In this document: piece by piece, positions 13,783 to 63,860 of the stretch | Position numbering within the stretch: position 1 is the stretch's first letter | Layout: the number at the start of each line of letters is the position of its first letter | NCBI RefSeq assembly: GCF_016433145.1 | Contig: NC_058134.1 | Coordinates: 73,487,547 to 73,551,546, forward strand | Length of the DNA stretch: 64,000 nt | Reading direction: 5' to 3' | Source of the DNA: Gracilinanus agilis | Lineage: Eukaryota | The notes under the pieces: generated by a model | Seen by the model: the letters and a program-made list of their open reading frames with translations, nothing else | What the model was told of the DNA's origin: nothing | Database searches by the model: none | Made by a program: the position numbers and the translations under genes

Positions 13783-15274
13783 TGTTAGACACTTTGTAAT
13801 CTCACTATACTCCAGGATCCACTGATGGCAGAATCCTGTTGTCCCAAGAATTGCTCTAAGCTGCTTTCTGGTCTTGGGAGCACTGATCTTTTGTATATCT
13901 GAAATTCTCCTGTGGGTAATGTTTCTACTTTCCCCTGATAGAACAAACCCTAGATACTTGATTCTATGCAAACACCACTGTAGTTTGGCCTTGGAAATAT
14001 TATGTCTATGCTTATATAATTTGCAAAGAAGAATCTTACTGTCCCTCAGACAAACTTTTGCATTTGAGAAAGCTAGGAGAATGTCATCCACAAAAATGTA
14101 CAAGTTTGCGCTCCTTAAATATTGTTTTAAGGTCTTTTTTTTTTTAACAATGGGTAAAATATATTCGGAGATTCAGAGAAACCTTGAGGCAGTCTTCACC
14201 ACTGGAACTGAATTCCCTCCCAGGTAAAAGCAAAAATATTTTGGGAGTCTTAATGGCTAAAGATAGAGAAACAAGCTGAACATAAGTCAACCACCAATGA
14301 AATATCTGGCATGGCTTGATATTGATGATATTATTGTAGCTGGGCTTGGAACAACAGCATGGGATTTTATAATATGGTCATTTATAACTCATAAAAATCC
14401 TGGATAAAACAATAGATTGGTCTGCCATCTTGATCTAGCTTTGCTTTCTTTATAGGAAGGATTGGTGTATTGTATTCTGAAAATATTGGTACTATTATCC
14501 CTTGATTTATTAATGAGTCTATGATTGGGTGGATACCATCCATGGCTTCTTTACTTAATTTATACTGGGATATACAAGGCGGGGAACCCCTTTTTGTCTA
14601 CTCTGACCAGGGTTGCTGACTTTAATAACCATACATCACTAGAAGACTTAGCCATATACCCTCTGGAATATCTCTTGGTATTTCAAAAACAGACTTTGTT
14701 TCCTCTTCTGCCTCCACTGAATCTTAGAAAAGCAATGGAAAGACTTTCAAAGATTCCTCTGGGAGATAAAGCAAAATCTGCCCAGATGGTATACAGTGGA
14801 TTGTTGCCCTTTGCTTACAAAACCGATTTCTTCCCATTAGATAGACAAGGGACCCAAAGAGAGAATTTTTGGTTGTAAATTTGCTACTCTTTGTTGCTTT
14901 CCTGTAACATCAATCACTTCCATCAAATCAATAACCCTGCAATCCTTAGGAGGAGTTTGCAACACAGATCTGCTTGCTCCCGTGTCCACTAAAGATCATA
15001 AACGTGATTCCTACACTGTTAGAGAAATACGAGGTTCAGTACTATTCCGTGGCGAAAATGTTTCTAATGTCAGGGCTAACACATTTGGAGCTGAGAAATC
15101 AATGTCTATGCCCTGAGTGACCCAGCTAATATCTTCATTTAGTTTCACTTCATTACGATCCCAGGAATTTGATTTGCTTTCCAATGACTCATTATTTCCC
15201 TCACAGTTTCCTTCAGCTTGTTCCATATTATTATTGCTCAGTTTCACTTATATCTTTGGATTCATTGTTCCCTC
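13783..15274 (-). mobile_element. pol: Class I ERV remnant: gag end, protease, RT
   Basis: Protease LVDTGASRSVL (about 14953-14998). RT FVDDILL...KLQWCLHRIKYLGF...KQLRAILGTTGFCHQWI (13717-14103). Truncated by the L1 5' end at 13782. Confidence 0.9.
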
Positions 15275-15490
15275 TGTAAGAAGGGTGGTTTGAGATAGTT
15301 GGAGTGTGGTTTGGTAACCCGTTGGTCTGAGTAAAAAGGGCCAATTCGCCTCCACAGCCACCCCTCCTTACTAGGGATACAACTTGGGGATTCTTGACAC
15401 TTGGGGTTCCCCAATATTTTGGGGGAATAAAAAACTGGGGTTCCAGTTTTAGAAAGTTAGAGAGAGAGATGTTCTCTATTGAAGGAAACT
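15275..15490 (-). mobile_element. LTR fragment (U5 end) of the 26276-27131 family
   Basis: tgtaagaaggg...gagatagttgg...ttggtctgagtaaaaagggccaatt...ggattcttgacacttggggttccccaatat matches 26276-26485. Confidence 0.8.
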
Positions 15491-15499
15491 AGTGGGAGC

Positions 15500-17100
15500 C
15501 TGGTAAGTTAATTAACGTCTAATTATTTCTAACTTTATTAATATGTTTAGCATTTACATGGTGTGGGACTGTTCACATTCTATTCTACTTTTTCCAACTT
15601 ATGTTACAGATATTTATAAGATTTTACATTATGTATGTCCTTTTGCAATCTGCATTCCAGTGTTAACCAGATATAAGGCTTTGGCAGCTTTATATTTGGC
15701 TAAGACCTTCATGATACTTGCTAACTGTTTACATGTATGTACATATTATATGTTTATATACATTTTTATGATAGAATCTTCTGAAACTTGTTAATTTACA
15801 TAAAATGTCAGCTAGCTATTGGTTTTGTGTTGTGGTTTGTATTCTTTTTATGTACTTTGCATGCAACATACTTACCTTTACTTCTTATAAGTTGTCTTTC
15901 TTCTCATGTTGACTGCAGTTTTTTCTTTTATGAATTTGTTTAATGTGCATGAAATTTTTCCTATCATGTGAAGCTAATATGTATTTTGTGTTACCATTGC
16001 ACTAGTCTTACATATTCTGTTTCCTTCTTCTTGCAAAGTTCATGATTTTTCTCAGTTCTTTTAAAGTTCATTTTCCTTTGCACCAATCTCCTTGGTGATT
16101 TGCAGGTTTCACTGATCTTCTCTTGTTTCTTTTCCCCTTCTCTGTCAAGCTGTCACATACTTGGCTGTTGTCTTATATCTTGTCGAATGGGCTCTCAGGT
16201 CCGGATATGGAACATTGTGATTTTTATCTATTGTATTTGTCCCATAAATTTCATTTTGACATCCTCAACATCTTTTTTTTCAATTGCATCTCCTCTTCTT
16301 ACTTGTTATTGCTTTTATTCTCTATTTTACTATCCCCGTTCTCTATTTTTGTGGCCCAACTTTTTCCTATTTGCATTTTTGCTTCATTTTTGTCTTTGTA
16401 CTCCTTTTTATTGCTTTGTGTGCTAATATTGGTTCCTGGCTGCATGCATTGGCTTGAATTTCCAAAAAACGTGGCCTGACCCCTTGCAAAATACACTTTT
16501 CAATTGTCCTAATATCTGGTGTGTTACTCAAGTTCCCTGAACCTCCGCAACTGTGGTCACAACATCTGTCATTTTTCTTTGAATATGCATTATTTTGGTT
16601 GTCTTTTGAATTAGTATAAGTGTTGGTGTAATTTCTTCTTCTGTTATTATTGCTATTTGTATTATTAAAGTTAATTTGCTCTTTGTAATAGCATGGTCTC
16701 AACAAGGTGCCCCAATTTTCCACATAAAAAAATCTCCTCTTCTCTGGGGTTTGTTTTGGCTGGTATTGGGTTTTATTGATGTTGTTCCTAGCCTGTAATG
16801 TGGCTAAATTCTTGATCTCCTCTATCTCTTTTTGTTCAATTGTTGTTTTTGCTTCTTTCAATTGCTTTTTGAGATCAGCACTGGTTTTATCATTGCTTTT
16901 CTCAGTTTGTTTTCTCTGTCATTGAACCCATGTGAACCCAAATGCACATAAGTTGCTGTTTTCCTCAAATCCTCCAAAGGGAACGTCTCCCACCCAGGAG
17001 AGTGCAATTGAAAATGAGTCCTTGATTTTGCATTGATTTATGTCTTTGCTTTTCCCTATTAGAATATCTCTTGTACTGTCTTCCCATGCTTTTGTAAGTG
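15500..17100 (-). mobile_element. gag: ERV gag 3' half (CA end, CCHC knuckle, extended C-terminus) running into the 3' tail without pro/pol
   Basis: ORF 16367-16861. The knuckle CGKLGHL..RPC is recoverable with a compensated frameshift at about 16690-16735. The tail at 15500-16100 is homologous to the post-integrase tails at 35750-35930 and 60550-60750. Confidence 0.7.
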
Positions 17101-17129
17101 TAAGTATGTCTATTTGTGTATTGTTTGAT

Positions 17130-19900
17130 TTTTGTCTATTGTTTTTGTTATTTTTGTCCCATAAATTTCCTTTTTGATCTCTTTCAGATCTTTGATTAAC
17201 TGCATCTCCTAGTCTGTCTTTGCTTTCATTCTCTGTTCTACAATCCCTATTTTCTATTTTTATGTCCCAACCTTTCTCTATTTGGCTTTTTGTCCCTTTC
17301 TTGTCTTTGCACTCTTTTTCTATTTCTTGTAGTGCTAATATTGGGTCCTGGCTTCATGCATTAGCTTGGGTTCCCCAAAATCTTGGTCTCTCTCCTTGTG
17401 AAATATGCCTTTCCATTGTCTGAATATCAGTTTTGTTATTTTTTCTTGAAACCTTGTGATCATGTTTACAGCATTTGTCATTTTTCTTTGAGTATGCATT
17501 ATTTTGGTTGTATTTTGAGTTAGTGTATGTATTTGTATAATTTCTTCTATTGTTATTACTATTGGTGGTAAAATTAATTTGTTGCTTGTAATAAGAATTT
17601 CTTACAAGATGTTATGATGGTATTGGGAACTGTTATGATAGTGGGTTAGTATAGACCCTCTTGCTGCTAAGGAATATAATTGCCAATATTTGAAGACGAG
17701 TGGTCTATAAATCTACCTGAAGTTGAAATAGCTGCCCTGATAGTGAAACTGGAATCAGTTGTTGCTTCTGTTAGTTTCCAGCTGGCAGTGGAACTTTGAG
17801 GTATTATCAGACTTAGCAACCAAGAATAGTTTGAACCAGGAAGGCCTGCCTGATGTGGACACAGACCAGTCCTTCTTGAGATCTAATCCTATTAAGCCAA
17901 GCCCTAGGTTGAATTAAGATGCTCAGCCAATTAAACTTGATGACAATGTTCTGACTGCAATAAGAAGTATTGGGAATATCTTCTCAAAGGTAGGCTGTAA
18001 ATTGATGACACTGTTATGATGGTTGTAACAAGTATTTAATTAATAACTAAGGAAAGGTAAAGGAAATGGGAGAGTGGGAAAGGTAACCCTGTAGATCAAA
18101 GCTAAGGATAGCTAAGGCTATGCATAAAATGACCTAGGTGCTAGAACTTGAAGACCTTGAGGGTCTTTCCAAATGCAGAGTAGCATCAGGAAATACAGGG
18201 ATTATAGGTAGATAAATATTTCAATCTAACAGAAGATGTTGTCAGAAGATGGTCAATAAATTGAATTGACAGTGTATAATCCTACCTGCCTATTGAAACT
18301 AACCACCTCCCTGAGCCCTCTCACTTTCCTCCCACCTCCCTGGAAAGGCTGAGAAGAAGTGACCCCAAGGGGGTTTGTGCTCCTCAATTTATACTCTTAA
18401 CTACCAGATTGGCACATGCCTAGGGCTGTCTTGCCAGGTTCTATATTCTAAAGGGGCAAACTGCTCTTTCGCACCTGCAAAAATAGCTGACCATTTTCTA
18501 TACATTACAAAGATGACCTAGTTTCCCACATAGAAAACATTTTCATGTATCAGTATTTTGTCTTGGCTGTTACTGGATCCTAGTGATATTTCTGGCCTGC
18601 AATGTTGTTAAGTTTTTGATTTCTTTTATTTCCTTCTGTTTGATTGTTGACTTTGCTTCCTTTAATTGTCTTTTTAGATCACTAGTTTTCATTTCTTTAA
18701 TAATCTTCATTTCATTCACTAGTTTCATTCTTGGTCTTCTCAGTTTGCTTATTTTTTTCTATTATCCTCTGTGACCCAGAATGAATGTAAGTAGCCGTTT
18801 TTCTCAGATCCTCTAGGGGTAGCTCCTCCCACCCAGGACAGTGCAGTTGGAAATAGGATCTTATGGGTAAGCTGCTTTCTTTGACATATTGCCTGCAGAA
18901 GTGCTACAGATTTGTCTTTCCAGGTCCTTGAACCCCAAAATTAATTCTTTTGCTTCGAGTACCCTATCTAGAAAGGTACTAAGATGTTCCCCTATCTTTT
19001 GCTTTAGAGCCTCAAACTGACCCCAGGTATTTGACCTTTTTGCAAAGTTGGACATCGCTTTGGTCAAATCCTCCCTACAATGTTTCAAAAAATGCATGGT
19101 TTAGGAGATTAGATAATTCAAGTTCTGAGTAAGCTTCAGGCCATGATATAAGATTATTATTAGTCCTTGTTTCATGAATAAATTGTTGTGCTTGAGAAGG
19201 GGCAAATAATTCTTCAAAAAGAATTTCTATGTCCCAGTAAGACGGATCATAAAGGCTAAGGGCCCTTTTCTATTCTTTTAGGTACTTTTGGGGGGATTCG
19301 TTCCAGTCTGGCATTCTCTTTTTTAAGCTTTCTAGGTCACTGCTTGAGAAAGGTCTGTGGGTTTTTAAATGTACTATTCTCCTGTCTGCCTGAAGGATGG
19401 ACTTGTCTACTAGAGGGAGTATAGGAAATGATGCTTCTGCTCTTTGTACTGTGTTGTTACTATTGCTTTCAGTTCCTTGTTTGTCAATTTCTTTTTTTCT
19501 AATAGTTGCATTATGTTCTCTTGCTCTTTAGCTTTTTCCCCAAAATTTGCCATCTCATTTTGTTTCTTTGCGAACTCAAGTTTCAAAGTTGCCAAGGTCA
19601 CTTTCTCTTCTGGTTTATGTCCCAGTATCTGTCCCACCAGCTTCTTTAATGCCCAGTAGAATTGGAGAAAGGATACTAAAACAGCCATGCATGTTGGAGC
19701 AAATGCAAATAGCTTCTCCAATTCCAATTTCATCCAACTATATGTATCAATTAAATGAATTAGTTGTAATATATATTAGGAATCATTTCAACCCACAGCC
19801 CATAAATCATAGTCCAGAAAGAGTAAAACATCAGAGAACTGCTCACTAAAACAAACAATGATCTTCCTAAAGCCCATTCCATTTTGACAGCTTGTATCTT
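17130..19900 (-). mobile_element. gag: ERV leader and gag, split by a solo LTR
   Basis: CA/MHR-like WGQFEALKQKIGEHLSTFLDRVLEA (18861-19097). Removing the LTR at 17610-18509 restores KCFLCGKLGHLVRNSYYK. Paralogous to 16230-17100 and 25080-25950. Confidence 0.8.
17610..18509. mobile_element. Solo (possibly compound) LTR with 4-bp TSD
   Basis: Termini tgttatg...attaca. TSD aaga at 17606-17609 and 18510-18513. The terminal tgttatgatgg is repeated internally at 18012. Confidence 0.85.
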
Positions 19901-20039
19901 TCTCCTTTAATCTATTTCTAACACTGGTTTTTATAAGAAGTTTGTCCCTATGGAGCCTCTGTAGTTAGGGATGGAGCTATTCCAATATGGCTAGCATCTG
20001 ACTTGTTGGGATTATAAACATAGGCTGCTCTCTGTTTAG

Positions 20040-20830
20040 CAGCTGGACAGCGTTATCTCTCTGGGGAGGGTCAGAAGGCAGTCACTGATAGAATTCTTGA
20101 ATGAAAATAGGCCAAGACCACTGTTTCCTTGATGATATATAGCTCTCTATCTTCTTGATGTAATATTGGTTATGCTGACCTGACTGTGAATAGTACTGAT
20201 GATCTTGGATTGATTAGAAATTAATTACAGGCAAGAGTTGGTGATTAGCCTGTACAATCCTCCCTAGCCAAGGAATTAATCCCAACTGTCAGGTTTGACA
20301 GTGAAAAGATTCTTGAAGTTGATGGACTAGGCCAGTAAGCAGATCTCAGCAACAGGTAAATAATTAATAGGTACAAGAATATCTTGATGGTATGGGGATT
20401 AAGGAAAAATGGGTGAGGATAGAGGTTTTAAGAGGTTAAACTAAAACTAATATCTAGTTGATAAATAGCCAGGCAAATCCCCTTGGGGAAAAGCCTGGGA
20501 CGGAATTCTGCCACTCTGGCTGGCTTGGCAACTTAGGCCTAATTCAGCGGTTAGATGTTAAAGCTTAATTTGGCTGGTTATAAAAAGCTGTTAATCTTTC
20601 ACCCTTTACCACCCACCTAACTCACAACTGAGTCAGTTTGCTTGTGGGCAACCTCCTATTTATAAGGGTGCTCCAACAGTCTTTCACTATCTCATGTCTG
20701 CTCTGGGAATTCCAAAATCTGAATCCCCATCTTGCAACCGTTTGCACAAGATGGCCACTTGCAAAGCTATTTACAATATGCCGGTTTTCTATTCGGCCAG
20801 AATTTTATCCTAATAATTCTGCATAAATCT
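20040..20830. mobile_element. LTR-like tract
   Basis: Non-coding LTR-style sequence between an ERV leader and an ERV tail; termini not confirmed. Confidence 0.4.
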
Positions 20831-23800
20831 TATTTCTAATGTTCTGCACTATTCTCTTCTAGATAATCCTATTCCCTCTTATGCCTTTCAACTCCAAAAT
20901 AACAAATCATCTTCTTATGCTATTCCTTAGCTAATTCTACCTTACCTACAACTTAAGACAGGGTTTAGGAAAGTAATTTCTTGGAAAGTTGGGGTTTCTC
21001 ATGGATGATACATGCATAACAACAATAAAGCAAAATCTGAACATAACATGTAACAAATAACATTCAAACAAACAAGATGCATTGCAACTTTACAAATGTT
21101 GCAATAAACTTATGGCTTAACTTACTGCTTAGCACTTATATGAAACAAAACACAGTATATAGTATCTTTACTTTCAATACTAACAGTATAAATCTAAACT
21201 ATTTTATCACTTCAACAAAGAAATCAATTAATCTTGTGTTAGTACATGTGTTAATATCACTTACTCAAGCTGTGTTAATTTTTTTAGTTCCTTAAATCCT
21301 GTTTAGTAACCTTAAGAATAAACTCAAAGTCATTATAAATAAAATGGTTAGTAATGTCTATTTACATTTCTATCTGATTATACTTATAGCTAATTTTACT
21401 GTCCCTAATTTAACTCTGTACATCAATTCCCTATCTGTCTTCCCCTAAAATTGTTAGTACAGTAAATATCTACAAGGGTCAGTGAGATATAATGCAAATA
21501 TACATATGTACAATGTATATGTATCAAACTTTTTACAAATGAGAGTAACAGAAGCACTGTTAACCACAGCAAGGAATTAATACATCCCTTGCTTTGGCTA
21601 AGTGTACTTAAAACTCACAAATATATGCAATATTTACATATATGTACTTGTGATGTGGAGATGTGAAGATACATAAGACCATCTTATGTTGGGTATTTTG
21701 ACCTACAGTGTTCTGTGACATGTGTATAATCACCTTCTGCTAGTAGGATTCTCTGTCAATTCTGTGAAAACAGAATTCTTCTTTCAGGCATCTATGTACT
21801 GTTGCATGCATTCTACTATGTGGCATGTGATGTGTCCATGATGTGATTGTGTTGTTAATGTGAAAACCTTACATTATCCAATACCTTAGTCTTCTCCTTG
21901 TCATGGTGCTACCCAGTTCACCGATTTATTCAAAGGTCTTTCTTGTCCTGCTGTTTTTGTTGAAAAATCCTGTGGTATATTTATGTTCCAGTCTTCTTTT
22001 CTTCCTCTGTTTCAGGATACACATGTTGTCTGCAGACAAACATTTGACTGTAGGATAACTTGTCACCTTTGTATTCTGGAACTGTTGTGATTGTGGTTGT
22101 GAAAGTTGTGAGTGTGTTAATTGTGTAAAAAAATTTCGTGTGTTCTAATAATTTTGATTTTTACTTTAGATGAATTCTTTTGGTTCAGTTTTCATCAAGG
22201 TCATCGTTATCTCTAGACTGTTGTTTATTTAAATCAGTTGTTATTATTCCTGAGTCTTCATCATGAGCCATTTCTTCTTCTGCTGATTTCACATGGGGGA
22301 TATGAAACCAGGGATCTCTATCTTTTGCTTTGATACTTGTAGGAGTAGTGAGCAATATTTCATAAGGTTCTGTCCATTTTGGATCAACAATGGACTTTCA
22401 AGTGAAATTTCTAATATACACCTTATCTCCTGGTTTGAATTGGTGCAAGCTAAAGTCGAGAGAAACTCTTTGATTCGATAAGCACAATCTATGTAATTCA
22501 CCTAGCCTCTTTTTTAATGTGTTTATGTATTCAAATAGCTTGCACTCAGCTCTTAGATGTAACAAGTGAGCTGTTTTTTGAGGTGCACTTCCATGCCATG
22601 GGGAATGACCATACAAGTGTTCAAATGGTGATAGATGAGTGTCACCATTAGGCTCGCTTCAGAGATGTAATAAAGCAATTGGGAGAACTTCCACCCATTT
22701 GAGATGACTTTCTGAGCAGTTTCCCATTTGGCTATTGAATCTCTCAACTTGCCCTGATGACTGGGGGTGATAGACTGAATGTAGAAGTCCTTTTATTCCA
22801 AGGGTCTTATAAATATTTTGCAAAATTTTGTTGGAAAAGTGAGAAACATGGTTGGAGTCAATACTATCAGGGATTGAAAAATGAGGGACTATTTCTCTTA
22901 GAAATATTTTGACTACAGATGCTACATTGTACCTTCTTGCTGGGAAGACTTATGGCCATTTAATCAGATGGTCAGTGATGACTAATGCATATTTGTATCC
23001 CTGATGTTTAGGCATGGAGAGGTAATCAATTTGGAGACATTCAAATGGGGTACAGGCTAGTTGTCTTCCACCTAGACTTTTAACTCTAGTTATCCCCTGA
23101 TTGAACTGTAAGCAAATCTTACACTTCTGTCACATTCTAATGGCATAGATTGAAATGCCTTTTGCTATCCAGTGTCACTTTATGGAATCTAATAAGGCAT
23201 GAGTTCCATAATGCCCTTTCTCATGTAATAAATTACATAGGGTGTAATACAATGCTTTTGAAAAATGGGTTTGCCATACAGAGCCAGATGCCATTGACTT
23301 GTTTGGCTCCTAGATTTTTCTTCCAGTCCTCCGCTTCTCTTGGGGTATAATCTTGTTGTAAATCTGCTTCTTCATCCAAAGAGAAGCTTAGAACACAGGG
23401 AGGTCCAAACCTAGCAATATTTGGCCATGATATCAGCCCTATAATTTCCCAGAGTCGCTGTATCTGTTTTCTTTTGATGACTCTGGCAATTCTCTAGGCA
23501 ACTGGACAGCTTCTAGGAGTTGGTTTATTAATTTCCCATAAGCATTTTCCTTTCCACCAGAGGTAATAAATCCTCTATGTTTCCAAATCTGAGCTGTACA
23601 GTGTACCACTCCAAAAGCGTATTTTGAATCTCTGTAAACATCAATATGTTTGTCTTTTCCAATATGGAGTGTTTTTGTCAGGCTTAAAATTTCTGATCCT
23701 TGAGTGTTGAAAGTTTTATGTAGGGCTGCATACCATAAAGTACTGTCTTGGGTCACTACAGCTGCACCCATGCATCTTTCCCCATCTACCATAGAGGAGG

Positions 23801-26272: not shown

Positions 26273-26275
26273 TAA

Positions 26276-27131
26276 TGTAAGAAGGGGGGTTTGAGATAGT
26301 TGGAATGTGGTTTTGGTAACTCCTTGGTCTGAGTAAAAAGGGCCAATTCTCCCCAGCCTCTCCTTACTAGGGATACAACTTGGGGATTCTTGACACTTGG
26401 GGTTCCCCAATATGGTTGTGCAGGGTTTAGAAAGTTAGAGGGACATGTTCTCTATTGAAGGAAACTAGTGTGAGCCCGATAAGTTGTTTTGTGCCGAGCT
26501 ACACCCACAAAGCCTCCCCAATCCCCAAAGCTAGATCTGATTTAAAATGGAGATCTGCATTCCTTCCTTCTCCAACCCACAAGTTCTCTCTCCCTCCCAA
26601 CTCCGTTACATAGATCTGACTGGAACAAAACTAAAAAGGATTTTATTTCAGAAACGACTAATGAGGAATAAATGAAGAGGGTGTCAGGGAAAAGGGATGC
26701 AGGGGGGTCCCTAAATTCCCCTCCCAAATAAGTGCTCTTAAGAATATAATTATGGCTAACTATAGAGGAAGTATGGTAAGGCGTTTAAGGCAATTTTGTG
26801 GGCACCCAGGAGCCAGCTCACCCACTGAAGTCCATACCCCTTGGCCAAACTGTAGAACTTTGTTAATATATCTTCCAAGATGGTCAGGAACTGATTGAGA
26901 ATCAATTTGAAGTGTTGTAATTGATAAACATCTTTGGAAACTCTTCAGATTTCCTTTTGAAGGTACTGCAGCCCCAAAATTCAACCTTCCTTCTTGCTGC
27001 CCCTCCAAAGCTAGAGAGATATCCATTGTTGACTTCCCACAAGTCTTTGCACTGATGCCAACTGTCATTCTCTCCCTCCTCAAAGTTCCATCAGTGAATT
27101 CCAACAAGTAGGCTTGCTCCAAACTCTTACA
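26276..27131 (-). mobile_element. LTR (probable 5' LTR of the 20830-26272 provirus)
   Basis: TG...CA termini (tgtaag/cttaca). Minus-strand AATAAA at about 26640-26650 downstream of a TATA-like box. PBS-like sequence adjacent; paralog of the solo LTR 59463-60382. Confidence 0.8.
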
Positions 27132-49657: not shown

Positions 49658-49677
49658 ATTTGGTCCTGAGAATGTTA

Positions 49678-52200: not shown

Positions 52201-52217
52201 AATGGAGGCACCAGGGA

Positions 52218-53600
52218 TGTTACAATAAATCTAAATATTTGTGGGTACACACGCTGTGTTGGAGGAGAGACTGGACCAGGATGGGAAGACCAGAGTTCAC
52301 TGGATTAACACAGGAATGGCAGTTGGTCTTAACTGTCACCCAGCTTTTCCTAGGCCAGAGTCTAGAAACAAGCAGGCAAGGTAAATGGTTTTAACAGGTT
52401 TAATTATGTTCAACTAAAAGGTGGGAAAGGGATTTCTATGCTTAAAACCCAATGACAAAACCACAGGGAAAGGGGAGGACTTCTCTACTCTAATCTTAGT
52501 GATCTAAGCAGACAGGGCCAAAGGAGCAGTAATGGAGTCTCTGGGAGGCTGCATCAGACCTGGTTCCAGCCAGGGTTTGACCAGCACAGTTATGGGCTGA
52601 GAGTGGCTTTGGGGTTTCTCACGGTTATCCACATATGATCTGTGGATGTCAAAAGCCAAGGTATCCAAGTAGAGAAGGTGTGCTTGAGATGCTGTCCACC
52701 AGATCCCAAACTTCTCCTCTTTCCTTGGTACTGCTCTGTTATTCTTGTACCCTTGCTAGATGCCACCACCACACAGGATCCCAGGGTGTCCTTTACTCTG
52801 AGATCTCCCAGGGCTAACCACAGTTTGTGCCAACCCCTAATGGAGTCTCTCTCAGAGCACAAGCCACTCCTTCCTGCTCCTTCATTCCATCTTGGAATGC
52901 TCCAGCTCCAGCCCTTCCTGTCCCACCTTAATACTTAATTACTACCTAATCTTCCTCACAACAGTTTAGACAGGCTTGTGAGATGAAGCCTGTCTGAGCA
53001 ACTCTCTTCACACTTACTGGAGGGAATGAAGGGGTGTTTTCTGTGACAGAACTGACAAAGATGGGCAGGTGTTAGTAACCTGGTAAGGGTTTCCTCTTCG
53101 GGGTAGTGTAGGTAGGTCCTTGGAGCTTGGCCAAATGGTTGGCCCAAGGAACCCCCTCCAGATCACAACCCCTGTCAGGTTAAGGTTGCACAGCAAGGGG
53201 CCTTGGACTGATCAAGCCTTTCCCTTGCCCTCTTCTTCCCTTAGATTCCCTATATTCCCAGGAATATCTCAATCTGCCTGCTTATAAAGGTTGTTTATTA
53301 TTTTTATGAATAAGGTGGGAGAAGTGTAGTGGAGAGAGGGGTCCCTAATTTAGCCCAAGTGACAAGGTCCTTCTTCACTGGTCAAGCCAAACAGCCAGAT
53401 CAGGAATTCTCATTCCCTCCCTTATATCTTAATCCTAAGATAATAACAGATTGATATTATTAGGGGTCTCTGTAGTAAAGTAGGTCAGATAGAGAGTCTT
53501 CATGGTTGGCCCAGTGTCCTGCCAGATTCACTGACCCTTTGGCCACTGGTATGTATATCCTAGATATATCTTTCTCCATGGTATCAGAGGAATTCATGAA
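52218..53600. mobile_element. Tract of LTR-like insertions
   Basis: TG-initiated non-coding blocks (52218, about 52977). Shares gaatggcagttggtc with about 32410. Confidence 0.45.
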
Positions 53601-53859
53601 CAACGTAGGTCTTTGGGGGTATCCAGATGTCCAAGGAAAACCTTTGGATGGCCTCTACTTGATCCTGAAGTAGGCAAGATTCCTTCCTCTCTCTTCCAAG
53701 ATCAGAGATTAAATACCCCCACCAAGGTTCTTTTCCTTTCCACAAACCTTTGCTTCTGTTTTAATCACTGCCTGTCACTCACTTGTTTTCTAAACATTCC
53801 AAACTCTGCTTTTCAAACCTGTCCTTACAAGTCCAATGTCTTTGGAATACTTATCCCAT

Positions 53860-54800
53860 ACTCCTGGAATCTCACTGGGTATTTCAAAAATTGAATTCAT
53901 TTTTTGCTGCTGTTCACCTTCCATTTGATCTAAAAATAATAATTGATAGGATTTTAGTGCATCCTTGGGAATATGAGAAAAACTTTGCCTGAAGGATCAC
54001 ACTTAACTATTGTACCAATTTTACACAGTAGGTCCCTCCCTAAGAGATTTGTTGGACATTCTGGAATCAGTAAAAAAGTGTGTTCTAGGGTCAGAGGACC
54101 CAGAGTTACCATCTTGGATTGAAGTTTTGGTACTCTGAGTTTGTCTTGTAGCTCCCATTACTTGTACTGATTGTACTATTTTACTATTCTCAGGAGATGA
54201 CTTTAAAACTGATCTCGTGCCTCTGGTGTCAAGTAGAGCTGCATAATTCTCTTCTCCTACTTTATTCATTACATGAGGTTCTTTTTTTGAAATACTTCCA
54301 CCATTGGTGTTTTGAATTTAATTTTCCCTAGATCCCAGTCACTTGCTATGTGTTTCAATATCAGCTACTGAATTTTTCCCTCTGAGCTTCACCTTGCAAC
54401 CCATATGTTGTCTTTATTGGGATTGGCTGAGTTTGGGGACTTAGGGAACTTGGGATGCTGCTTCCTTGTGGAATGACCATAGAGATTGTGAAGGCTTGAA
54501 CTCCTTGACACAGGGGTTCATTGTTGATTTCATTTTAGATCAGTGACATATCCCTCTGCTTTGTCTTCCCCTTTGTTTATGTCCCCAGGAGGTCTGCTCA
54601 TTTGTTTGGAATTGTTGGTGTCTGTTCTAACCCCTTGGTCCTTACTTTTGTTTACATAGACACCTTGCTCCACAATATTATATCTTCAATGTTAATACAA
54701 GCAGTTTCAATACATTGCTGACATGTTGTAGCATATTACAAAGCACTGATATAACAATGACATCAGTTCCATGGTTGTTATTCTTTTCCCTTATTGTATT
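53860..54800 (-). mobile_element. ERV gag end and protease remnant
   Basis: YAALLDTRGTRSVLKS (DTG-like, 54021-54269) and downstream FEIPSEIPGVWDKYSKDIGL, parallel to the linker at about 14600-14700. Confidence 0.7.
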
Positions 54801-55046
54801 TTTCAAATTAGCACAAAAAAATTTTGTGTGTATACTGGCCCTTTAAATTTTCCCAGCCTTGCAGATACCTGGCTGGATGATTGACAGGTCCTGTCACTAG
54901 GCAGATTTTACTGTTGGAAAAATTTTTTTTCAAAATGGCCACCACCTACTGTCTTTTCAGGCTTTATAGGCCCAACTGCTACCAGACCCAGAAAAAGGTT
55001 GTTTTTATCAGAAAATCTCAGATTCTTTCCATTTCTGGGTTGCAAA

Positions 55047-55315
55047 CTGAAATAGTTGATAGTTGAACTAATTAGGGAAGGGAGCTGAAGTAACTTTCTA
55101 TATGCCCAGTGATGACTGAGTTGATTAGAGACAGGAACTAGGCCCAACAGGTAAGCCTAACCTGTCGGTGATGGTATAACATAATCTGACTGATACCAAG
55201 TTGTTTTAAACAGTCTTAGATTTATTTTACTACGCAAACTCATAGGATGGGATAGTGGACCAGGGTGAAGGAGTCCCTAAATCTAATAATTTAGTTTCTC
55301 TACCAAAATCCCATT
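55047..55315. mobile_element. LTR fragment, paralog of 6225-6505
   Basis: Near-identical blocks shared with 6225-6505. Confidence 0.75.
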
Positions 55316-55399
55316 TTGTCCTCATGTACTTTCTTCATGGAAGTTGAGGCTACACTCTCTAGTCTATCTCTCTACCTAAAGAAAATCTAGCTACCTAAA

Positions 55400-56650
55400 T
55401 CCTGCCTAGCCACTAATAAATAGAAACAGCATACAGAGGCCTGAACCGAGGTGGTTGGGCTCTTCTTTATGGAGAGTCACTGTGTCTTCACAGCTCACAC
55501 TCGCACAGAGATAATTTCAGGATGGTAAAATATGCTACGGCTCTCAGAATCACAGAAGTATCTTGATAACAGGAACTTCCAAGATTTAGTCAGGAAAAAT
55601 TAGTTACCTCCCAAAGCCAGATACAAAATGGCCATAGGAACTAACCCTCTGCTCTCCTCCAGAACAACCCCAATGGTCTCTGTGTGTTGCCTTTTAAGCA
55701 GTCCTCCCATTCCAGAATAGGGTCCGTAGTGTTCTGTGCATGTGCTAGGCCCTTGCTTTGCAAAGTCTTTGCACCAGACCTTTGCAAACACTCCTACTTG
55801 CTTCTTTCCTTCTTATATAATACAAAATAATCTTAACTAAAAAATATATAAAACTAGAAAAATAGAAAAATTACAATAAAACACAATGTAGCATAAGCTT
55901 TTATTAAAAATACAATCTGACTGAAAAATGAACTTATGCAAAATGCATTTTAAAAAATTTAAGCTAAACAATTTAAAATTTAAAATAAATTCTATCTATG
56001 CTAAATACTATTGCTAATACATTCAACCAAACTCTCTACATTGAACTGTTAACTAAGCATTCTATCTTATGAATCTAATGTTTTCATATCATTTTAACTA
56101 TGCATATCCTCATTTTACATAATCTATACATATATCTACACCAGTGATGGGCAAACTTTTTAAAGAGGGGACCAAAGGAAAGGAAATGCTCATCTGTCAG
56201 TCTGTTTCTAAGGCAACTCTTTCAAAGTTTCATTGTATTGTATCCTACACATTGTGTTCATCAGATTAGGAATAATGTTTTGTGACTGGATAGAACATTT
56301 CAGGGGGCCACATCTGGCCCGCAGGCTGTAGTTTGCCCATCACTGATCTATACATATTTACTTATATCTACACATATGTAGAGACTTACAAAACTGCATT
56401 TCAGTAACTTTAGACATTGAACTTACATGTTACATACTTGTACAAGCTAAACAAACTCATATATACACATATGTACATTACTTATATTACAATTATTTTA
56501 CAAGTATGTACAGAGCTATGTACAAGCATATGAGTAATATGTAGGGTATGTATTGCATAATCCTACTCTAATTTCTGTATTGATGCATAAATGTTTCCTG
56601 ATGTTACCTAAATAGAATATCTCAATCAGACCTTTTATCTAGGTAAGACC
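55400..56650 (-). mobile_element. LTR remnant plus AT-rich ERV 3' tail
   Basis: 55400-55800 matches 5560-5817. 55800-56140 is homologous to 58900-59100 (aaacacaat.tagc...gcaaaatgca...tacattgaactg). Confidence 0.6.
56142..56345. mobile_element. hAT MITE (204 bp), same family as 48764-48968
   Basis: TIRs cagtgatgggcaaact / agtttgcccatcactg. 8-bp TSD atctacac / atctatac. Confidence 0.93.
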
Positions 56651-56699
56651 TGAAAGAAGTGGGTTTGATCACTTAAAAGGTTGGTAAGTTTTAAAGTCC

Positions 56700-58550
56700 A
56701 GTGTCTCTGTCTGTCCCAGACTGATAGGCAAAATGGCTGGCTTCAGACCTGGATATCTTAAGAACACAATTGACTTCTCTATTAAGTTGTCAAAAGGTTT
56801 AATATATTAAATAAGACAGAGAAAGGGAATAAGAAAGAAGGCCAGGGTCATTCCCTAGCACTAAAAGCTCTAATTCTCCTCCCACCAATCTACGAGGTCC
56901 ACATGGACCTCCCTTCTTTGACTTGCTGCAATCTGTCACCCTAACATCTCTAAACAGTACCCCCAAATCCCTAATATTTAGCTTCCCTGACTAAGGCTAC
57001 TCCAAAACTGTACTGGGAAAAGGTTGAATAGTTCAGTTCCACTGGATAAAGGTGGTGACCAGATGACAGAGTTATCAAGGCTTACAGGCAACTTTCTGCA
57101 GGTTTCTTGGAATATAGACAGATAAAAGTCTATGTTCAGGTTGCCTTTCTTCTCAGGAACTCAAAGGTAGCTTATAAATAAGATAAGGAACAGAAGGCAG
57201 GAACAAAGGGAGAGAGAAGTCCAGAAGCTGGAAAGCTAGAAAGCTGGAAAGCTGGAAAGCTGGTCTGATGGCTCTTCTATTCCTCTTGGGGCAGGTCAGT
57301 TAACTTCCCAGCCAGTTAACCCTCAAAGTTCTGAAGGAAACAGCAACCAACTTCCTGCTTCAGGCTTCAAGTCCTCTCTTTATTCTTTTCTCACATTATT
57401 TTGGAACACTTTTATTGGAGTTCCATCCAAGATTCATTTTTTTTGCACCCTGTATTTTTTTCAACTTGCCTTCCTCTTCCTATTTCACGGACCTTATGAA
57501 TCTAATATGTATACTTTCTTTATTACTATATTAACCAGTTCATAAATATCCATTTACCTACATGCGTATTATATCAAATACAGATCTTATAACAGATCAA
57601 ATACAGATCTTATGAAAGATGTGAGTTTGGCAACTCAGAAGGTTAGTAGTATCAGAAGTTTGTTATCTCTGTATGTCCAAGACTCAGAGGGGAATATGGC
57701 TACCCTCAGTCCTGAAACTCTCACAAATGCAATCTGACTGATGTATAGTTGACAACAAAGTGCTTAATCTTGTAAAATAAAAAGGACTGGGTAAGGAAGG
57801 AGAGCCCAGGAAAGTTCCTAAGCTAAAAGAGCTATACTCTAGAGTCTATGGAGGCTTGCAAAAGCCTGTCTTCTTTGTCTTCTAAGCTATCTATCACCCT
57901 GACCTGACCATAGTCATGCTTTTAACCCCAAATCCCTATACTAGCTTCACTAATCTATAGCCACTCCAAGACAGTTTTTTGAAATGGTGAATAGATCAGT
58001 TTGGCTGAAGGAAATTTGGTGATGATGATGAAGAAAACTTGATGGTATGGTCACCAAGGTTTGTAGGCTAAATTCTACAAGGTATTTGAGTAAAAAACAA
58101 TTCAATTGAGGTTCAAGATGAGTTTCTTTCTTCAGAGTCTCACAGTTAGATTTAAACAGATCAGGAACACACACAAGTAACCTAGGAACAAACTAGAACC
58201 AAAATCTGGAACACGCAGAAGGAACAACCAGCCGGATCAGAGTGAGGAAATAGTCCAGTAGCTGGACACTCCTCTCATAGCTCCAACTGCTACCACTTCT
58301 CCCCCCAGGGCTGGCAGTTAACTCCCAGAAGCCCCTCTCAAGGTTCTGATTGCCCAAGCACTCCTTGCTTTAACTTAAACCCCTCTCTTTTACCTGTTTA
58401 CACATTCTCTTTGGAACTCTTCTCCTTTTCATTCCAGCCAAGATCTTTTGCTTTTCACCCTGCATCTCTTTGCACTTTAACTTGTCTCATATGCCATTCT
58501 CACACTCCTCCCTTTATACAAATGGGGTTTCCATTCTGTGGACCTTAATA
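56700..58550. mobile_element. Tract of old LTRs
   Basis: 56710-57200 matches 6575-7100. About 57290-57460 and 58310-58470 are paralogous to each other. Confidence 0.55.
57225..57263. repeat. (AAAGCTGG)n, about 5 copies
   Basis: Directly visible, with one variant aaagctag. Confidence 0.9.
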
Positions 58551-59181
58551 CTTACCAGAATTTTTACTAATCTCTTATGCTACCATCTAATCCCAAAATA
58601 AATAAATACCCCCTACTCTTTCTATGCGAAACCTATTTTTAACTTTGCCTAATCTTGGGATTTCAACCAAGGAAAGAAAGAGTAAAGGTAACGATTTACA
58701 TAATTGTTACACTGCTTAACCACAACACTACATTAGTAAATTCAAAACAATTAAAAAACCATGAACATACCCTATCACTACAAAATGCAATCAAATTCAC
58801 AACTTAAACATTACCATAAACTCTTATAAACCAATTTTATATCAAAACCTTATAATACTAAACTAATACAAAAAAATCTATCCAAAAAACAAAATCATTC
58901 AAAATTTGTAGAAAAAATACTACAAAAATTTTTACAATAAACACAATTTTAGCTTAATCTGAGTAATAAAATTCTGCAAAATGCAGTTTAAAAATCTTAT
59001 CTAAACCATTCAAAATAATGTCTATTCTATATGCTATTTCTAATACATTTAACTAATGTTTACATTGAACTGAGAACTAAGCTACCTATTGTACATCCTT
59101 TTTACATATCATACAAATCCTATATATATATGTGTGTATATATCTACATATATACATTAACCCTATGTTCCTTTTAACTAT

Positions 59182-59334
59182 TGTTAGGGTCCGAAATCGC
59201 AGACCCCGAGAATGGAGACACGGAGGCAATGCAAGTTCACATGAGCTGGGGTGCTGTTGTGCAGCTCGTTCCAGGAAGGGGCCCAGAGGGGTTGTGGTTC
59301 ACTAACTGCCATGTATCCAAGTTTCAACCTTACA
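59182..59334. mobile_element. 153-bp mini solo-LTR-like insertion
   Basis: tgttagg...ccttaca termini, perfect 4-bp TSD ctat (59178-59181 and 59335-59338), five CpGs. Confidence 0.75.
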
Positions 59335-59462
59335 CTATGTTACAAGTATTTACATATATACAAATATATTTACAGATGTGTGTATATTATATATTCCATT
59401 CATTGTATATTTCATTATTATCAATTCTATCTAAACCCTGATAATATTTAAATAAAAAATTC

Positions 59463-60382
59463 TATAAGAAGTGGCGAGTTTAGGAGGATGGGGATATAGT
59501 TGGTAACCCCCTGGTTGATGTATAAGGGTCACTTCTCCCTCACAGCCACCCTTCCTTTCTAGGGAGACAAAATGGGGTTTCTTGAAAAATGGGGCTCCCT
59601 TAGATGATCGTGCTGTGGCAGGGTAGTTAGAGGAATGTGTTCTCTATAAGGGGAAATAAGTGTAACCCCAATACAATGTTCATGCCAAGCTGTATACACT
59701 GAAGCCTCCCCTGATATCCCCAACAGGAATCAGATTCAAAATGGAAGTCTGTTCTCCTTCCTTCCTCAACCCACTGTTCTGACTCCCACCAATATATTTA
59801 CATGGATCTGACTAAAAGAAACTGATAAGAGTTTTATTTCAGGAACAAAGATGAGGGTGTCAGGGAAAGGGGGTACAGGTGATTTCCTAAAACCCCTTTC
59901 AGTCCTTGACTAGGCAAGGTACCCACAGATATTCTTTGTTCCTCAAATCCAAGCTTCTCTGATCCAATCCCAAATGATACTCCTATAATTAGAATTATTG
60001 CTAATTAAGGGGGAATATAGAAAGGCAATGTTCAAGACAAGTTTTGTGGGTCCCTGGGGTTGGCTCCCCACAGAAGTCTAGACCCCCTGGACAAACAGAA
60101 GAAACTGTTGTTATATATTCTCCAATGTGATCAGGAACTGATAGAGATCAAGTGGAATGATTTATCTTCACTGAAGGTCTCAGAAAACCCTCCAGATTTC
60201 ACTTTGTAGGTCCCACAGACCTGCAAATCTATCTTCTGTCCTGGGCTGTCAACCCCAAAGCTTGAGTGATCGGTTTGTTCTTCTCCCAGAAGTCTTCACA
60301 TCAGGCCAACTGACATTCTCTCTCCATATTCTGTGTTCCATCTGTTAGTTCCAAAAATGTATGGCTTGCCTTGCTTCTTACA
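59463..60382 (-). mobile_element. Solo LTR (920 bp) with 4-bp TSD
   Basis: t(a)taagaag...cttaca. TSD attc at 59459-59462 and 60383-60386. Paralog of 26276-27131. Confidence 0.87.
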
Positions 60383-61099
60383 ATTCCAAACACACTTTCC
60401 ATTTAGTTATTACCTCATTAATCGAATCACTAACTATTCTTATAATGTCAGTTCTTTTCCATCAAAAAGACCTCCATTTATCTAAATGGGGTCTGAAAAC
60501 ATAGGGACAGTATGTAATTTATGGAATATGTAACCTAAATATGTGTAGTGTTATATGCATTATATTCACTGTCTCTTCAGAGTTCCTCTTGCCGTTTTGA
60601 CTGATGGCTCTCTTCTGTTCTTCCATGTATGTTTGTGTTGGATGCAACTAAAATTTGAACATGTATTTGTGTTTTACGGTCCATCTTATCTTACAAACCA
60701 TCCAGTTCACATTTGTTCCTCTTCTTATTTACAAGTTCTCATTTGTATCTTTCTCCTTCTCCTCTCCTGCTCTAAATCTTGCTGTTCCTGCTTTTCCTCT
60801 GGATTGCTTTTATTCTTCCACTGCAAAGCTCCCTCTTGAACTTTTTGCTGGATGGATCTCGTATTGCCTGATTATCTTTCAGCTTTCTTCTTCTTCTAAA
60901 TATTAATTTTCATTCTCATCTCCTCATCTCCTTCTCCTAAACCTCTTTCTGTCTCAATTTCTTCTTCATTCTCATTCTCATTATTATTTTCACTCTGATT
61001 TGGGCTACTTCTGTTTGATTGGCTAATTTTAATATGGGAAAGTGCACCCATGTATGTTTTTCAAGAACTTTTATAGCTGAAGGACCAGTCAGAATAACT

Positions 61100-63860
61100 T
61101 GATAAGAACCTTTCCATCACTCCTCTGTAGATGATTTTCTAGTAAAGTTTTTAATAAACATTTAAGTGTCCTGGTTTGATGTCATGTCATGCAAAGAATA
61201 ATCAAGCGGACCAGCCTGTTGAAGCACACCCATCTCATGAAGCTCTCTCAGCCTGTCTTGCAATGATGTTATATAACTTGCAATTTGGTTATCACCACCC
61301 AGAATTGAAATAAAAGTTGGCTTACACATTTTAGTTTGTAACAGAGCATGGCCATATAACATTTCAAAAGGAGAGATATGCTGATCTCCACTAGGTCAAG
61401 TATGGAGATAGAAAAGAGTTATTGGAAGGATTTCAGGCCATTTTAAATGATTCTCTGAACAGATTTTTGCCATTCATGGTCTTTAATTCTCCGTTAAGCC
61501 TTTCTATCTGTTCTGAGCTCTGGGTATTGTAAGGAGTATGAAAACTACCTCAATTCCCAAATTTTCACAAACCTGTTTTAAAATGGATTCTGAAAAAATC
61601 TGTCCTCCAGTCTGGGACCACAACACAAAAAATGAGGCATTATCTCCTTTAATAATCCTTTTGTCACAACTCCTGCAGTGTTCTTATTTGCAGGAAATAC
61701 TTCTGGCCAAAGTGTAAGTCTGTTTACAATCACTAGACAGTATTTAATTTTTCCAGCTTTAGGAATGCTAATAAAGTCTATTTGTATGCTCTTGAATGGA
61801 GTATATGCTAAAGGTCTGCCCCCTAACCCTCTCTTCTTAAATACTTCTTGATTAAACTTCATATAAATAGAACACTTTCCATAGATTTTTCTAGGAACAG
61901 ATGTGATTCCAAGGACCAGCCAAAATCATTTGACTGTTTCAACCAAGACTTTGATGCCAAAGTGTCCTTTACCATGAATAGAATTGCAAACTTGATAAAA
62001 TAACTGCTTTGGTAAGATGGGCTTCCCTGTGTCCAAGATCCATATCCTACTAAATTCTTTAGCTCCAAATTTATCTATCCATGTCTGAACTTAAGAATCA
62101 TTGGTTAGATCTGCTTCCTTAATGATTGAGAGACTCATGACATGGACAGGAGCTCTTCGGGCAGCAAATTTGACTATTTTATCTGCCCTATAATTTCCCT
62201 TAGACTCAGAGTCTGTCCCATAGCCATGGACTCTGCAATATGTTACAGATATTTGCTTTGGCAGCTGGATTCCCTCTAATAATTCTGTAATTACTTTTAC
62301 ATAGGCTATATCTGTTTCCCTGCAGATGTTAAATGACTCATTTCTCCATATTTCTCCCATTGCACAGGTAACAGAAAACACACATTTTGAATCTGTGTAA
62401 ATGTTCACATTCATGCCTTTCCCAATAATGCAGGCTTGCTTGAGAACCACCAACTCCACTCCTTGGGCACTCACATTGCTAGACAATGATATATACCATA
62501 CTATCTCATTTTCTGTCACTACTGCTGCCCCAGTGTACTTCACAACATTGTGCATATACGATGATCCATCGGTAAAAAAAACCAGGTCCAGATTTACAAT
62601 AGGAGCATCTTTTAGATCCAACCTATTCTTTTCAACCAACTTTACCACTTCCTCACACTGGTGGATTGGCTTACCCTTCATTGGTAAATCTGGCAACAGT
62701 GTTGCTGGTTTTAAAACATCACACCATCTCAAAGTGATGTTCTCATTGCTCATCAGTACTATCACATACTGAGACAGCCTCTGCTATGTAAACACTTGTT
62801 TATTACATTTGCGTAGCAATGCTTCTCTCTGATGAGTACAGTACACTGTAAGTTTTGAGACCAAAACTAAATCTGTTGATTTCTGTGACAACAGAGCAGC
62901 AGCAGCTACCCCTTTTAGACATGATACCATTGCTGCAGCCACAGAATTGAATTGTGAAGTATAATAAGCAACAGGTCTAAAATTAGTTCCTAAAGTATGT
63001 TCTAAGCACCCTGAAGCTACCCCTTTTGCTTCATGGACAAAGAGATGGGATTCTTTGCTATAGTCCGGTATGCCTAATGCAGGAGCTACTAGCATTGCCC
63101 CTTTTAGTTTTGCCAGAGCTTGCGTTTGCTCAACAGTGAGCCTTAAGAGTTCTGTCACAGCATTTCTTGTCAGATCTGTCAGATACTTAGTTATTTCACT
63201 ATACCCTGGGATCCATGGATGGCAGAACCCTATAGTCCCCAGAATAGCCCTCAGCTGTTTTTTGGTCTTTGGAGCACTGAGTTTCAGTATGTCAGCTATT
63301 CTTTTCTGGGAAATAATTCTTGTGCTCTTTGCTAACACAAATCCTAAGTACTTAACTCTGGACAAATACCACTGCAGTTTGGTTTTGAATTTATACAACA
63401 CACAAACAAGCCTTGTACTGTCCCTAAAACAGATCTTTGCATTTGGGGATGCTAAGAGGATGTCACATACAAAATGCACCAATTTTCTTTCCTTGAATAT
63501 TATTGTTTTCAGATCTTTTTTAAGGATTTGAGAAAACAGGGAGAGTCTTTGCCAACAGATTGATTCCCTTCCCAAGTGAAAGCAAATATTTTTTGACTAC
63601 CTTTGTGAATGGGGCTAGAAAAATAAGTGGAGCACAAATCTACAACTGTGTAGTATCTGACATTGCTGGGAATAGAGGACAGAATGGTGGCTGGGCTTGG
63701 AACCACAACATAATTGATTATGAAATCATTGACAGCTCTTAAATCCTGTGTAAATCTCCATGTTGGTCTACCTTGATCATCTAATTTTGCTTTTTTTAAT
63801 TGGCAGAATTGGTATATTGTATTCAGAAAAGGTTGGGACAATTATTCCTTGGTTGCAGAG
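61100..63860 (-). mobile_element. pol: Class I ERV pol (RT, tether, RNase H, integrase), the least decayed copy
   Basis: WRFTQDLRAVN...VVDLCSTYFS (63509-63841), RT/tether 62784-63575, RNase H FTDGSS...QGVELV...YTDSK...GNYRAD (62091-62765), integrase FKSIQIDFISIP (61578-61862). Confidence 0.93.

What the first reader, a model, noticed from the sequence alone, without database searches (positions are those of the whole stretch)
13783..63860. All ERV remnants point the same way: candidate uni-strand antisense TE trap (piRNA-cluster-like locus)
Seen: nine to ten separate ERV coding remnants (13783, 16230, 17130, 22290, 27132, 30457, 36242/48686/51131, 39454, 54021, 61162) are all on the minus strand. 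So are every LTR I could orient by PBS, PPT or poly(A) signal, and two of three L1s; the three SINEs are plus. If ten insertions were independent and unbiased, the chance of one shared strand is 2 x 0.5^10, about 0.002. Established: uni-strand clusters such as Drosophila flamenco collect retroelements antisense to one long transcript, and introns also favour antisense LTR elements. Inference: a plus-strand long transcript through this ERV graveyard could supply antisense piRNAs against several marsupial ERV families.
Basis: partly seen in the sequence, partly recalled or inferred. Interest (0 to 1): 0.7.

Follow-up and report, generated by a model that had tools for sequence, protein, structure and literature searches.

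The report
Antisense retrovirus pile inside CCDC7 intron
This stretch is the middle of a 169-kb intron of the opossum gene CCDC7 that is packed with nested remnants of at least 18 old retrovirus copies, nearly all facing against the gene, likely because same-direction insertions were purged; whether the pile also supplies defensive small RNAs is untested.

Summary
The strand bias is real and wider than reported: all 11 ERV coding segments in the window are minus; they come from 8-9 insertions. The window lies in a 169-kb GT-AG intron of plus-strand CCDC7, and introns are known to favour antisense ERVs.

That rule does not explain the density. The intron holds 26 segments (24 minus) and 18 capsid copies from scattered lineages, about 42 times a random sample (lower bound 7.6). 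The copies are nested, independent insertions, not local duplicates.

Similar one-way piles occur elsewhere in this genome. One is antisense in a PCCB-like intron. One diverges from a CpG island and maps, by rough synteny, onto a published opossum piRNA cluster. The CCDC7 intron appears absent from that adult-testis list. No usable RNA data were obtained.

Best reading: a self-reinforcing intronic insertion pile, oriented by selection against sense copies (0.55). An intron-embedded piRNA trap stays open (0.27). This scan noted one-way piles in other genomes before.

The parts
1..64000 (+). Interior of a ~169.2-kb phase-0 GT-AG intron of CCDC7 (donor at about -49,234, acceptor at +119,932 in extended window coordinates; CpG island at about -55.6 to -54.7 kb)
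   Evidence: PF15368 hits on both sides; exon map of P0001, with the same junction in 9 of 10 marsupial homologues; boundaries; CpG island
4984..5825 (.). LTR-like repeat, 92% identical to a copy at 91089-91934; orientation not established
7402..13782 (-). Old L1 (ORF2 remnant 7750-9677 and 5' part)
13777..15273 (-). ERV A, RT/protease half
   Evidence: RVT_1
15275..27134 (-). ERV C inserted into ERV A: LTR, pol 22188-25031, gag 25082-26073, LTR from 26276 with a primer-site-like motif; target duplication degraded
   Evidence: LTR K2P 0.08 on 209 sites
16218..17611 (-). Two adjacent gag pieces, 74% alike, nested in ERV C (one or two insertions)
27135..28143 (-). ERV A, gag half; nearest relatives 85-87% on other chromosomes
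30460..31757 (-). Integrase remnant with MLV-type C-terminal domain
   Evidence: MLVIN_C
36245..54358 (-). One provirus (integrase 36245-37419; RNase H 48646-49672; RT 51129-52143; protease 53867-54358) split by an ERV and L1s
   Evidence: collinear pol positions; rve and RNase_H
37419..48685 (-). Nested ERV (LTR, pro-gag 39423-41401, LTR) with a 4-bp target duplication GCCC
   Evidence: RVP; LTR K2P 0.10
41944..46496 (-). Younger L1 inside the nested ERV
49667..51131 (+). L1 5' part (ORF1 remnant); the only plus-strand coding retroelement found in the window
57613..64000 (-). ERV H: LTR 57613-58481 and pol 61009-64091; continues to its other LTR at 82547-83395, with at least two further nested levels outside the window
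   Evidence: LTR K2P 0.12
10357..10518 (+). tRNA-like SINE
34693..35045 (+). Two tRNA-like SINEs
41512..41700 (+). tRNA-like SINE

Best explanation
The window is the middle of a 169-kb intron of plus-strand CCDC7 filled with independent, nested class I ERV insertions that nearly all face against the gene, likely because sense-oriented copies disrupted the transcript and were purged while new copies likely kept landing in or beside earlier ones. Shown: the intronic position, the nesting with target duplications, many lineages, and the strand bias. Inferred: germline transcription of CCDC7 in this species; selection through premature polyadenylation or splicing; a self-reinforcing integration hotspot; and retention of internal sequence because nesting separates LTR pairs. 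On this reading the pile is mostly an old accumulation (roughly 13-33 Myr by LTR divergence at an assumed rate) and needs no small-RNA function.
For: Intron of a plus-strand gene, with plus-strand compositional skew in unique CCDC7 DNA (+0.12 and +0.07, against -0.17 in minus-strand EPC1). In both piles where I found coding exons on both sides (2 of 2: CCDC7, and a PCCB-like gene with 11 of 12 segments antisense between consecutive exons) the ERVs oppose the gene. Intronic antisense bias is established, and internal splice sites are named as targets (PMC1794541). Copies are independent: 18 capsid copies spread over the tree, best in-intron identity at most 0.69; nearest relatives 85-87% on other contigs; target duplications GCCC and ATAG. 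No young copy: best match to the ten ERV probe loci with long open frames is 85%; LTR K2P 0.08-0.13. No listed opossum adult-testis piRNA gene lies near the estimated position, chr8 235-241 Mb. Human LTR elements are over-represented in nesting events (PMC2836564).
Against: Intronic selection predicts fewer ERVs, yet density is 15.4 segments per 100 kb against 0.36 in 30 random stretches (1 segment in 276 kb; fold 42, lower bound 7.6). The hotspot step was not tested. The whole-intron bias is stronger than a 75% baseline (24 of 26, p = 0.026; 17 of 18 capsids, p = 0.04; but 16 of 18 gives p = 0.14). L1s in the other CCDC7 introns are mixed (5 minus, 4 plus). A sibling pile maps onto a published piRNA cluster. 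Skew in the window's own unmasked DNA is weak (+0.035 +/- 0.021). By eye I saw no MLV-type BET-binding tail (motif recalled) in three probe integrases.
Confidence: 0.55

Rival explanations
1. Intron-embedded piRNA trap. The CCDC7 promoter drives an unspliced or intron-terminating RNA that is cut into antisense piRNAs against ERV1 lineages, now (fetal testis, ovary) or in the past, so antisense captures were positively selected.
For: Large ERV-specific excess: only 5 L1s and 5 SINEs in the block. Many lineages, with internal sequence kept. The C2 pile flips strand at a CpG island (left 17 of 19 plus, right 34 of 39 minus) and maps within about 1-3 Mb of the bidirectional cluster IG_36/IG_37. 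Human piC-1 (TMEM181) and piC-9 (CHD1L) include intronic antisense elements (PMC11615739). Koala has a flam-like ERV.1 cluster (10.1101/599852).
Against: Spliced-out introns are poor precursors: hamster C12orf45 gave piRNAs from exons, not introns, and in flies a cytoplasmic transcript is required (PMC13226689). Not on the adult-testis list by name or estimated position. No ERV closer than 85% to the probe loci. No excess of a recalled MYB core in the CpG island (1 site against 2.9 shuffled; the C2 island also shows none). A similar pile sits in PCCB, a housekeeping gene (recalled).
Confidence: 0.27
2. Intrinsic same-direction self-targeting. These ERV1 lineages insert into their own kind in the same orientation whatever the host transcription, and the antisense founder was chance or a one-time filter.
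For: All five piles with 12 or more segments are strongly one-way. The C3:444 pile (21 of 22 plus) has no flanking coding exons found on both sides. Unique DNA before the C2 right arm shows no plus-strand skew (-0.012 +/- 0.009).
Against: Human ERV-into-ERV orientation bias is at most about 2-fold, and ERV1-into-ERV1 is not among the biased pairs listed (PMC2836564 Table 3). Orientation opposes the gene in 2 of 2 intronic piles and flips at the C2 island. An ERV-rich zinc-finger region is mixed (5 plus, 3 minus). Three of the sites were chosen because they held co-oriented hits.
Confidence: 0.12
3. Local tandem duplication or assembly error made one array look like many insertions.
For: A few near neighbours (16218/17126 at 74%) and a 289-bp exact repeat beside an N stretch.
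Against: In-intron capsid identity is at most 0.69; nearer relatives lie elsewhere for 13 of 18 capsids among the fetched loci and for 2 of 2 genome-wide searches; nested target duplications.
Confidence: 0.03

Closest known systems
Antisense bias of ERVs in gene introns (van de Lagemaat et al. 2006, PMC1794541; passages and section 7 read)
   Same: ERVs inside a transcription unit oppose the gene.
   Different: That study finds most families depleted in introns in both orientations and sense copies 2-3-fold fewer. Here one intron is about 42-fold enriched and 24 of 26 segments are antisense.
Drosophila flamenco and flam-like unistrand clusters (PMC10643416; passages read)
   Same: A long, dense, one-way array of LTR-element remnants downstream of a discrete promoter.
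   Different: Flam-like loci are shown piRNA sources and favour env-bearing Gypsy elements. This pile is inside a protein gene's intron, gave no env hit, and has no small-RNA evidence.
Mammalian TE-antisense piRNA clusters: koala pi-phaCin-IG-174 (10.1101/599852), human piC-1 TMEM181 and piC-9 CHD1L, piC-DoGs (PMC11615739); passages read
   Same: Antisense ERV1 under a germline transcription unit; some include intronic space.
   Different: They are defined by piRNA reads and lie mostly intergenic or downstream of genes. Here the pile is in an early intron, and piRNAs are untested.
Nested TE insertion preference in the human genome (Levy et al., PMC2836564; passages read)
   Same: LTR elements nest in LTR elements; 4-bp target duplications for ERV1.
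   Different: The reported orientation bias is at most about 2-fold for ERV pairs; nesting here is several levels deep and over 90% one-way.

Membership tests
Unistrand (flamenco-like) piRNA cluster | Dense LTR-element content with strong strand bias | tested here: met
   24 of 26 segments minus; 42-fold density
Unistrand (flamenco-like) piRNA cluster | A discrete promoter upstream on the antisense strand | tested here: met
   CpG island about 11 kb before the pile, upstream of CCDC7 coding exons; activity inferred
Unistrand (flamenco-like) piRNA cluster | Non-coding precursor in which the elements are part of the mature RNA | tested here: not met
   The pile lies in an intron of the CCDC7 gene model; an intron-retaining isoform is untested
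Unistrand (flamenco-like) piRNA cluster | Uniquely mapping one-strand 24-32 nt RNAs with 1U bias and phasing | not testable with these tools
   No small-RNA run was available. Not on the opossum adult-testis list by name or estimated position
Unistrand (flamenco-like) piRNA cluster | Content matches currently active families | tested here: inconclusive
   Best match to ten probe loci with long ORFs is 85%; these probes are not a full census of active families
Pachytene (A-MYB) piRNA gene | A-MYB site at the promoter | tested here: inconclusive
   1 recalled core motif against 2.9 in shuffles; a crude test, also negative at the C2 island
Intronic antisense ERV population | Within a transcription unit of a protein gene | tested here: met
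Intronic antisense ERV population | Elements oppose the gene | tested here: met
   11 of 11 in the window, 24 of 26 in the intron; one of the two plus pieces is an inverted gag of a minus provirus
Intronic antisense ERV population | Density at or below the genome average | tested here: not met
   15.4 against 0.36 segments per 100 kb
Class I (gamma-like, ERV1) elements | Gag_p30-type gag, MLV-type integrase C-terminus, 4-bp target duplication | tested here: met
   MLVIN_C in the window; all best hits are to class I probes; GCCC and ATAG duplications

The most novel reading that the evidence does not exclude
Didelphid marsupials keep a class of 70-200 kb one-way ERV1 archives under germline transcription units, some as bidirectional piRNA clusters (the C2 locus) and some inside single introns of ordinary genes (CCDC7, PCCB-like). 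The intronic ones are, or were, flamenco-like traps in which a retained or prematurely ended intron supplies antisense piRNAs against many ERV lineages.
Probability: 0.25. Interest if true: 0.75.

Novelty: new variant of a known kind. Interest (0 to 1): 0.42.

Why it matters
The orientation is ordinary for an intron; the scale is not. If the pile is only a hotspot plus purifying selection, it shows that a flamenco-like layout can arise without piRNA function, so strand bias alone cannot call a cluster. If it makes piRNAs, it would be a mammalian trap built inside an intron. The genome offers a natural comparison: piles with similar content in introns and at a probable piRNA cluster. Existing Monodelphis small-RNA data should be able to test the trap model on them.

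Tried and rejected
RNA evidence: no RNA holder listed for a stretch at the CCDC7 5' end. Contigs of four possibly-RNA runs laid on window 13800-29400 gave only short, repeat-like matches and no long piece; this says nothing for or against expression. RNA across the exon-intron boundary remains untested.

Zinc-finger cluster: rejected; no C2H2 linker or KRAB motif in 364 kb.

Missed plus-strand ERVs: none of 250 bp or more in the window after widening the library.

Tandem duplication: rejected.

Host genes for the C2 and C3:444 piles: a home-made exon finder plus Pfam (76 candidates) found PCCB-like and CHMP7-like exons but no gene spanning those two piles. Its recall was low (5 of the 11 known CCDC7 exons in the loci used), so this is no evidence that they are intergenic.

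MYB motif count and integrase-tail inspection were uninformative.

Literature: nine searches listed no paper on an ERV pile or piRNA cluster in CCDC7; I judged most by listing only. CCDC7 was absent from the supplements of PMC4654475 and from the opossum sheet of PMC7782496 (its file 2 could not be read). DOI 10.1038/s41559-019-1065-1 was not held. The koala preprint's supplementary cluster table was not seen and could bear on whether the koala orthologue is a cluster.
Full report
Setting. The window is G000:C5:73,487,547-73,551,546. A CCDC7 protein record whose contig length equals that of C5 names Gracilinanus agilis. I fetched 150 kb on each side and use window coordinates extended beyond 1-64,000.

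Observation. With a widened probe library, 11 of 11 segments of at least 250 bp in the window are minus; shorter hits were dropped because some probes ran into SINEs. They resolve into 8-9 insertions. The 13783 and 27132 pieces are halves of one provirus split by the 15275-27134 element. The 36242/48686/51131/54021 pieces are one provirus split by a nested ERV (target duplication GCCC) and two L1s. Chance under no bias is 0.004-0.008. L1s are 2 minus and 1 plus; SINEs are 4 of 4 plus.

Extent. ERV coding remnants fill a block from about -43.7 to +88.6 kb and are nearly absent from the other 230 kb (1 segment). The block has 26 segments, 24 minus. One plus piece is a gag lying exactly where its minus-strand provirus continues, so probably a local inversion. 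Density is 15.4 per 100 kb against 1 segment in 276 kb of evenly spaced stretches: 42-fold, lower bound 7.6. An ERV-rich zinc-finger region gave 4.7 per 100 kb with mixed strands, 5 plus and 3 minus.

Host gene. The BioT2 domain matches the plus strand at -50.0 kb and at +119.9 kb. The CCDC7 protein maps to 12 exon matches, with residues 73-103 ending near -49,235 and the next residues starting at +119,933. The intron between is about 169.2 kb, GT-AG, phase 0. A CpG island lies 5 kb before the first coding exon, and EPC1 starts divergently at about -129 kb. Unique DNA shows the expected strand skew: CCDC7 +0.12 and +0.07, EPC1 -0.17; the window's own unmasked DNA gives only +0.035 +/- 0.021. 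CCDC7/Biot2 is described as testis-high in other mammals (PMC7838428, listing and abstract start); expression in this species is inferred.

Independence and age. Eighteen capsid copies in the intron are spread across a tree of 90 sequences, with best in-intron identity at most 0.69. Two genome-wide searches found nearest relatives at 85-87% on other contigs, against 69-72% in the intron. Seven LTR pairs differ by K2P 0.08-0.13 with gaps excluded; at an assumed 2-3 x 10^-9 per site per year this is 13-33 Myr. Some pairs may be separate solo LTRs. The closest match to ten probe loci with long ORFs is 85%. No env or class II hit was found in the block.

Does the intron explain it? Human intronic ERVs have 2-3-fold fewer sense copies, and most families are depleted in both orientations (PMC1794541, passages and section 7). 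Against a 67-75% antisense baseline, 9 of 9 gives p = 0.03-0.08 and 24 of 26 gives p = 0.003-0.026; against 80% they give 0.13 and 0.08. So the direction is largely expected and the density is not. Human nesting data give at most about 2-fold orientation bias between ERV families (PMC2836564, passages).

Other piles. Relatives of the window's gags led to further sites; three were chosen for co-oriented hits, so they are selected. A 73-kb intron between consecutive exons of a minus-strand PCCB-like gene has 11 of 12 segments plus, again antisense (gene name recalled, Pfam Carboxyl_trans). C3:444.29-444.55 Mb has 21 of 22 plus; its pile lies upstream of a minus-strand marsupial gene. On C2 a CpG island at 158.17 Mb has 17 of 19 plus on its left and 34 of 39 minus on its right. 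Sites not chosen for co-orientation were smaller: 1 plus and 3 minus, 0 and 4, and one element.

Published piRNA loci. I read the whole opossum sheet of PMC7782496 Supplementary Data 4 (194 intergenic and 13 genic loci). CCDC7, PCCB and CHMP7 are not named. The pair at 244.4 Mb fits a BAMBI-adjacent cluster; the human 10-p11 cluster is in the same table, and its nearness to BAMBI is recalled. Nine listed loci are unplaced, and the list needs over 100 piRNAs per million. With DBNDD2 as anchor (family hit assigned by position), the C2 island falls at chr1 582-585 Mb, near the bidirectional pair IG_36/IG_37 at 585.6 Mb, and in that orientation both arms oppose the ERVs. Against this, unique DNA right of the island shows no plus skew. 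These placements are estimates, not liftovers.

Mechanism. I commit to a self-reinforcing intronic pile: insertions accumulated in and beside earlier copies, and sense copies were removed because they would truncate or mis-splice CCDC7 (0.55). The hotspot step is inferred and untested. The trap reading (0.27) has the ERV-specific excess and the C2 sibling for it. Against it are the intronic position, the absence from the adult list and the lack of young copies. Precedents exist both ways: intronic antisense elements in human piC-1 and piC-9, but exon-only piRNAs in a hamster locus (PMC11615739, passages), and a need for cytoplasmic RNA in flies (PMC13226689, passages). Intrinsic same-direction targeting gets 0.12 and duplication 0.03.

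RNA. No run on record as RNA held the stretch tried, and contigs laid on the window were uninformative. Expression and piRNA output are untested.

Verdict. It resembles flamenco in layout but cannot be filed as a unistrand piRNA cluster, because it lies in a protein gene's intron and has no small-RNA evidence. It is an extreme variant of intronic antisense ERV accumulation. Nine paper searches listed no report of it. Earlier AI notes on one-way piles in other genomes were not checked and are not counted as support. Interest 0.42.

Noticed in passing
G000:C2:158.03-158.47 Mb (L083-L102, L123-L132, L163-L166, L183-L192): Divergent ERV pile around a CpG island (left 17 of 19 plus, right 34 of 39 minus). 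By rough synteny it matches the published opossum bidirectional piRNA cluster IG_36/IG_37, so it is a better flamenco-like candidate than the window. It holds copies up to 90% identical to the probe loci, and its left end was not reached.
   Followed up: partly
L094:6581-7474 (minus): Intronless prohibitin-like (Band_7) ORF inside the C2 right arm, co-oriented with the ERVs; probably a processed pseudogene.
   Followed up: no
G000:C3:330.986-331.060 Mb (L104-L111): A 73-kb intron of a PCCB-like gene filled with ERVs, 11 of 12 segments antisense.
   Followed up: partly
G000:C3:444.34-444.46 Mb (L113-L122, L148-L150): All-plus ERV pile (21 segments) upstream of a minus-strand marsupial gene with a 1238-codon open frame (PF27961 relatives). 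Weak plus-strand matches to that gene lie in and beyond the pile. It may correspond to opossum clusters IG_163/164; not anchored.
   Followed up: partly
extended window -28,827 to -27,405 (L008): The gag of a minus-strand provirus lies inverted in place; a real inversion or an assembly flip.
   Followed up: partly
window 28354-28547: Near-perfect hairpin: 88-nt arms, 94% complementary, 18 nt apart, just beyond the gag of ERV A.
   Followed up: no
window 11106-11394 and 11478-11766: Exact 289-bp duplication next to an N stretch; possibly an assembly artefact.
   Followed up: no
window 48763-48968 and 56141-56350: Unclassified ~200-bp repeat, 88% alike, with inverted copies at 86.6 and 104.9 kb.
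   Followed up: no
G000:C13855:5686-5769: An unplaced contig carries an equally scoring match to the CCDC7 exon after the intron; probably a haplotig.
   Followed up: no
G000:C4:192.97-193.07, C4:135.29-135.32, C4:251.69-251.71, C2:230.88-230.96 Mb: Further pairs of co-oriented ERV hits that may mark more piles; not fetched.
   Followed up: no
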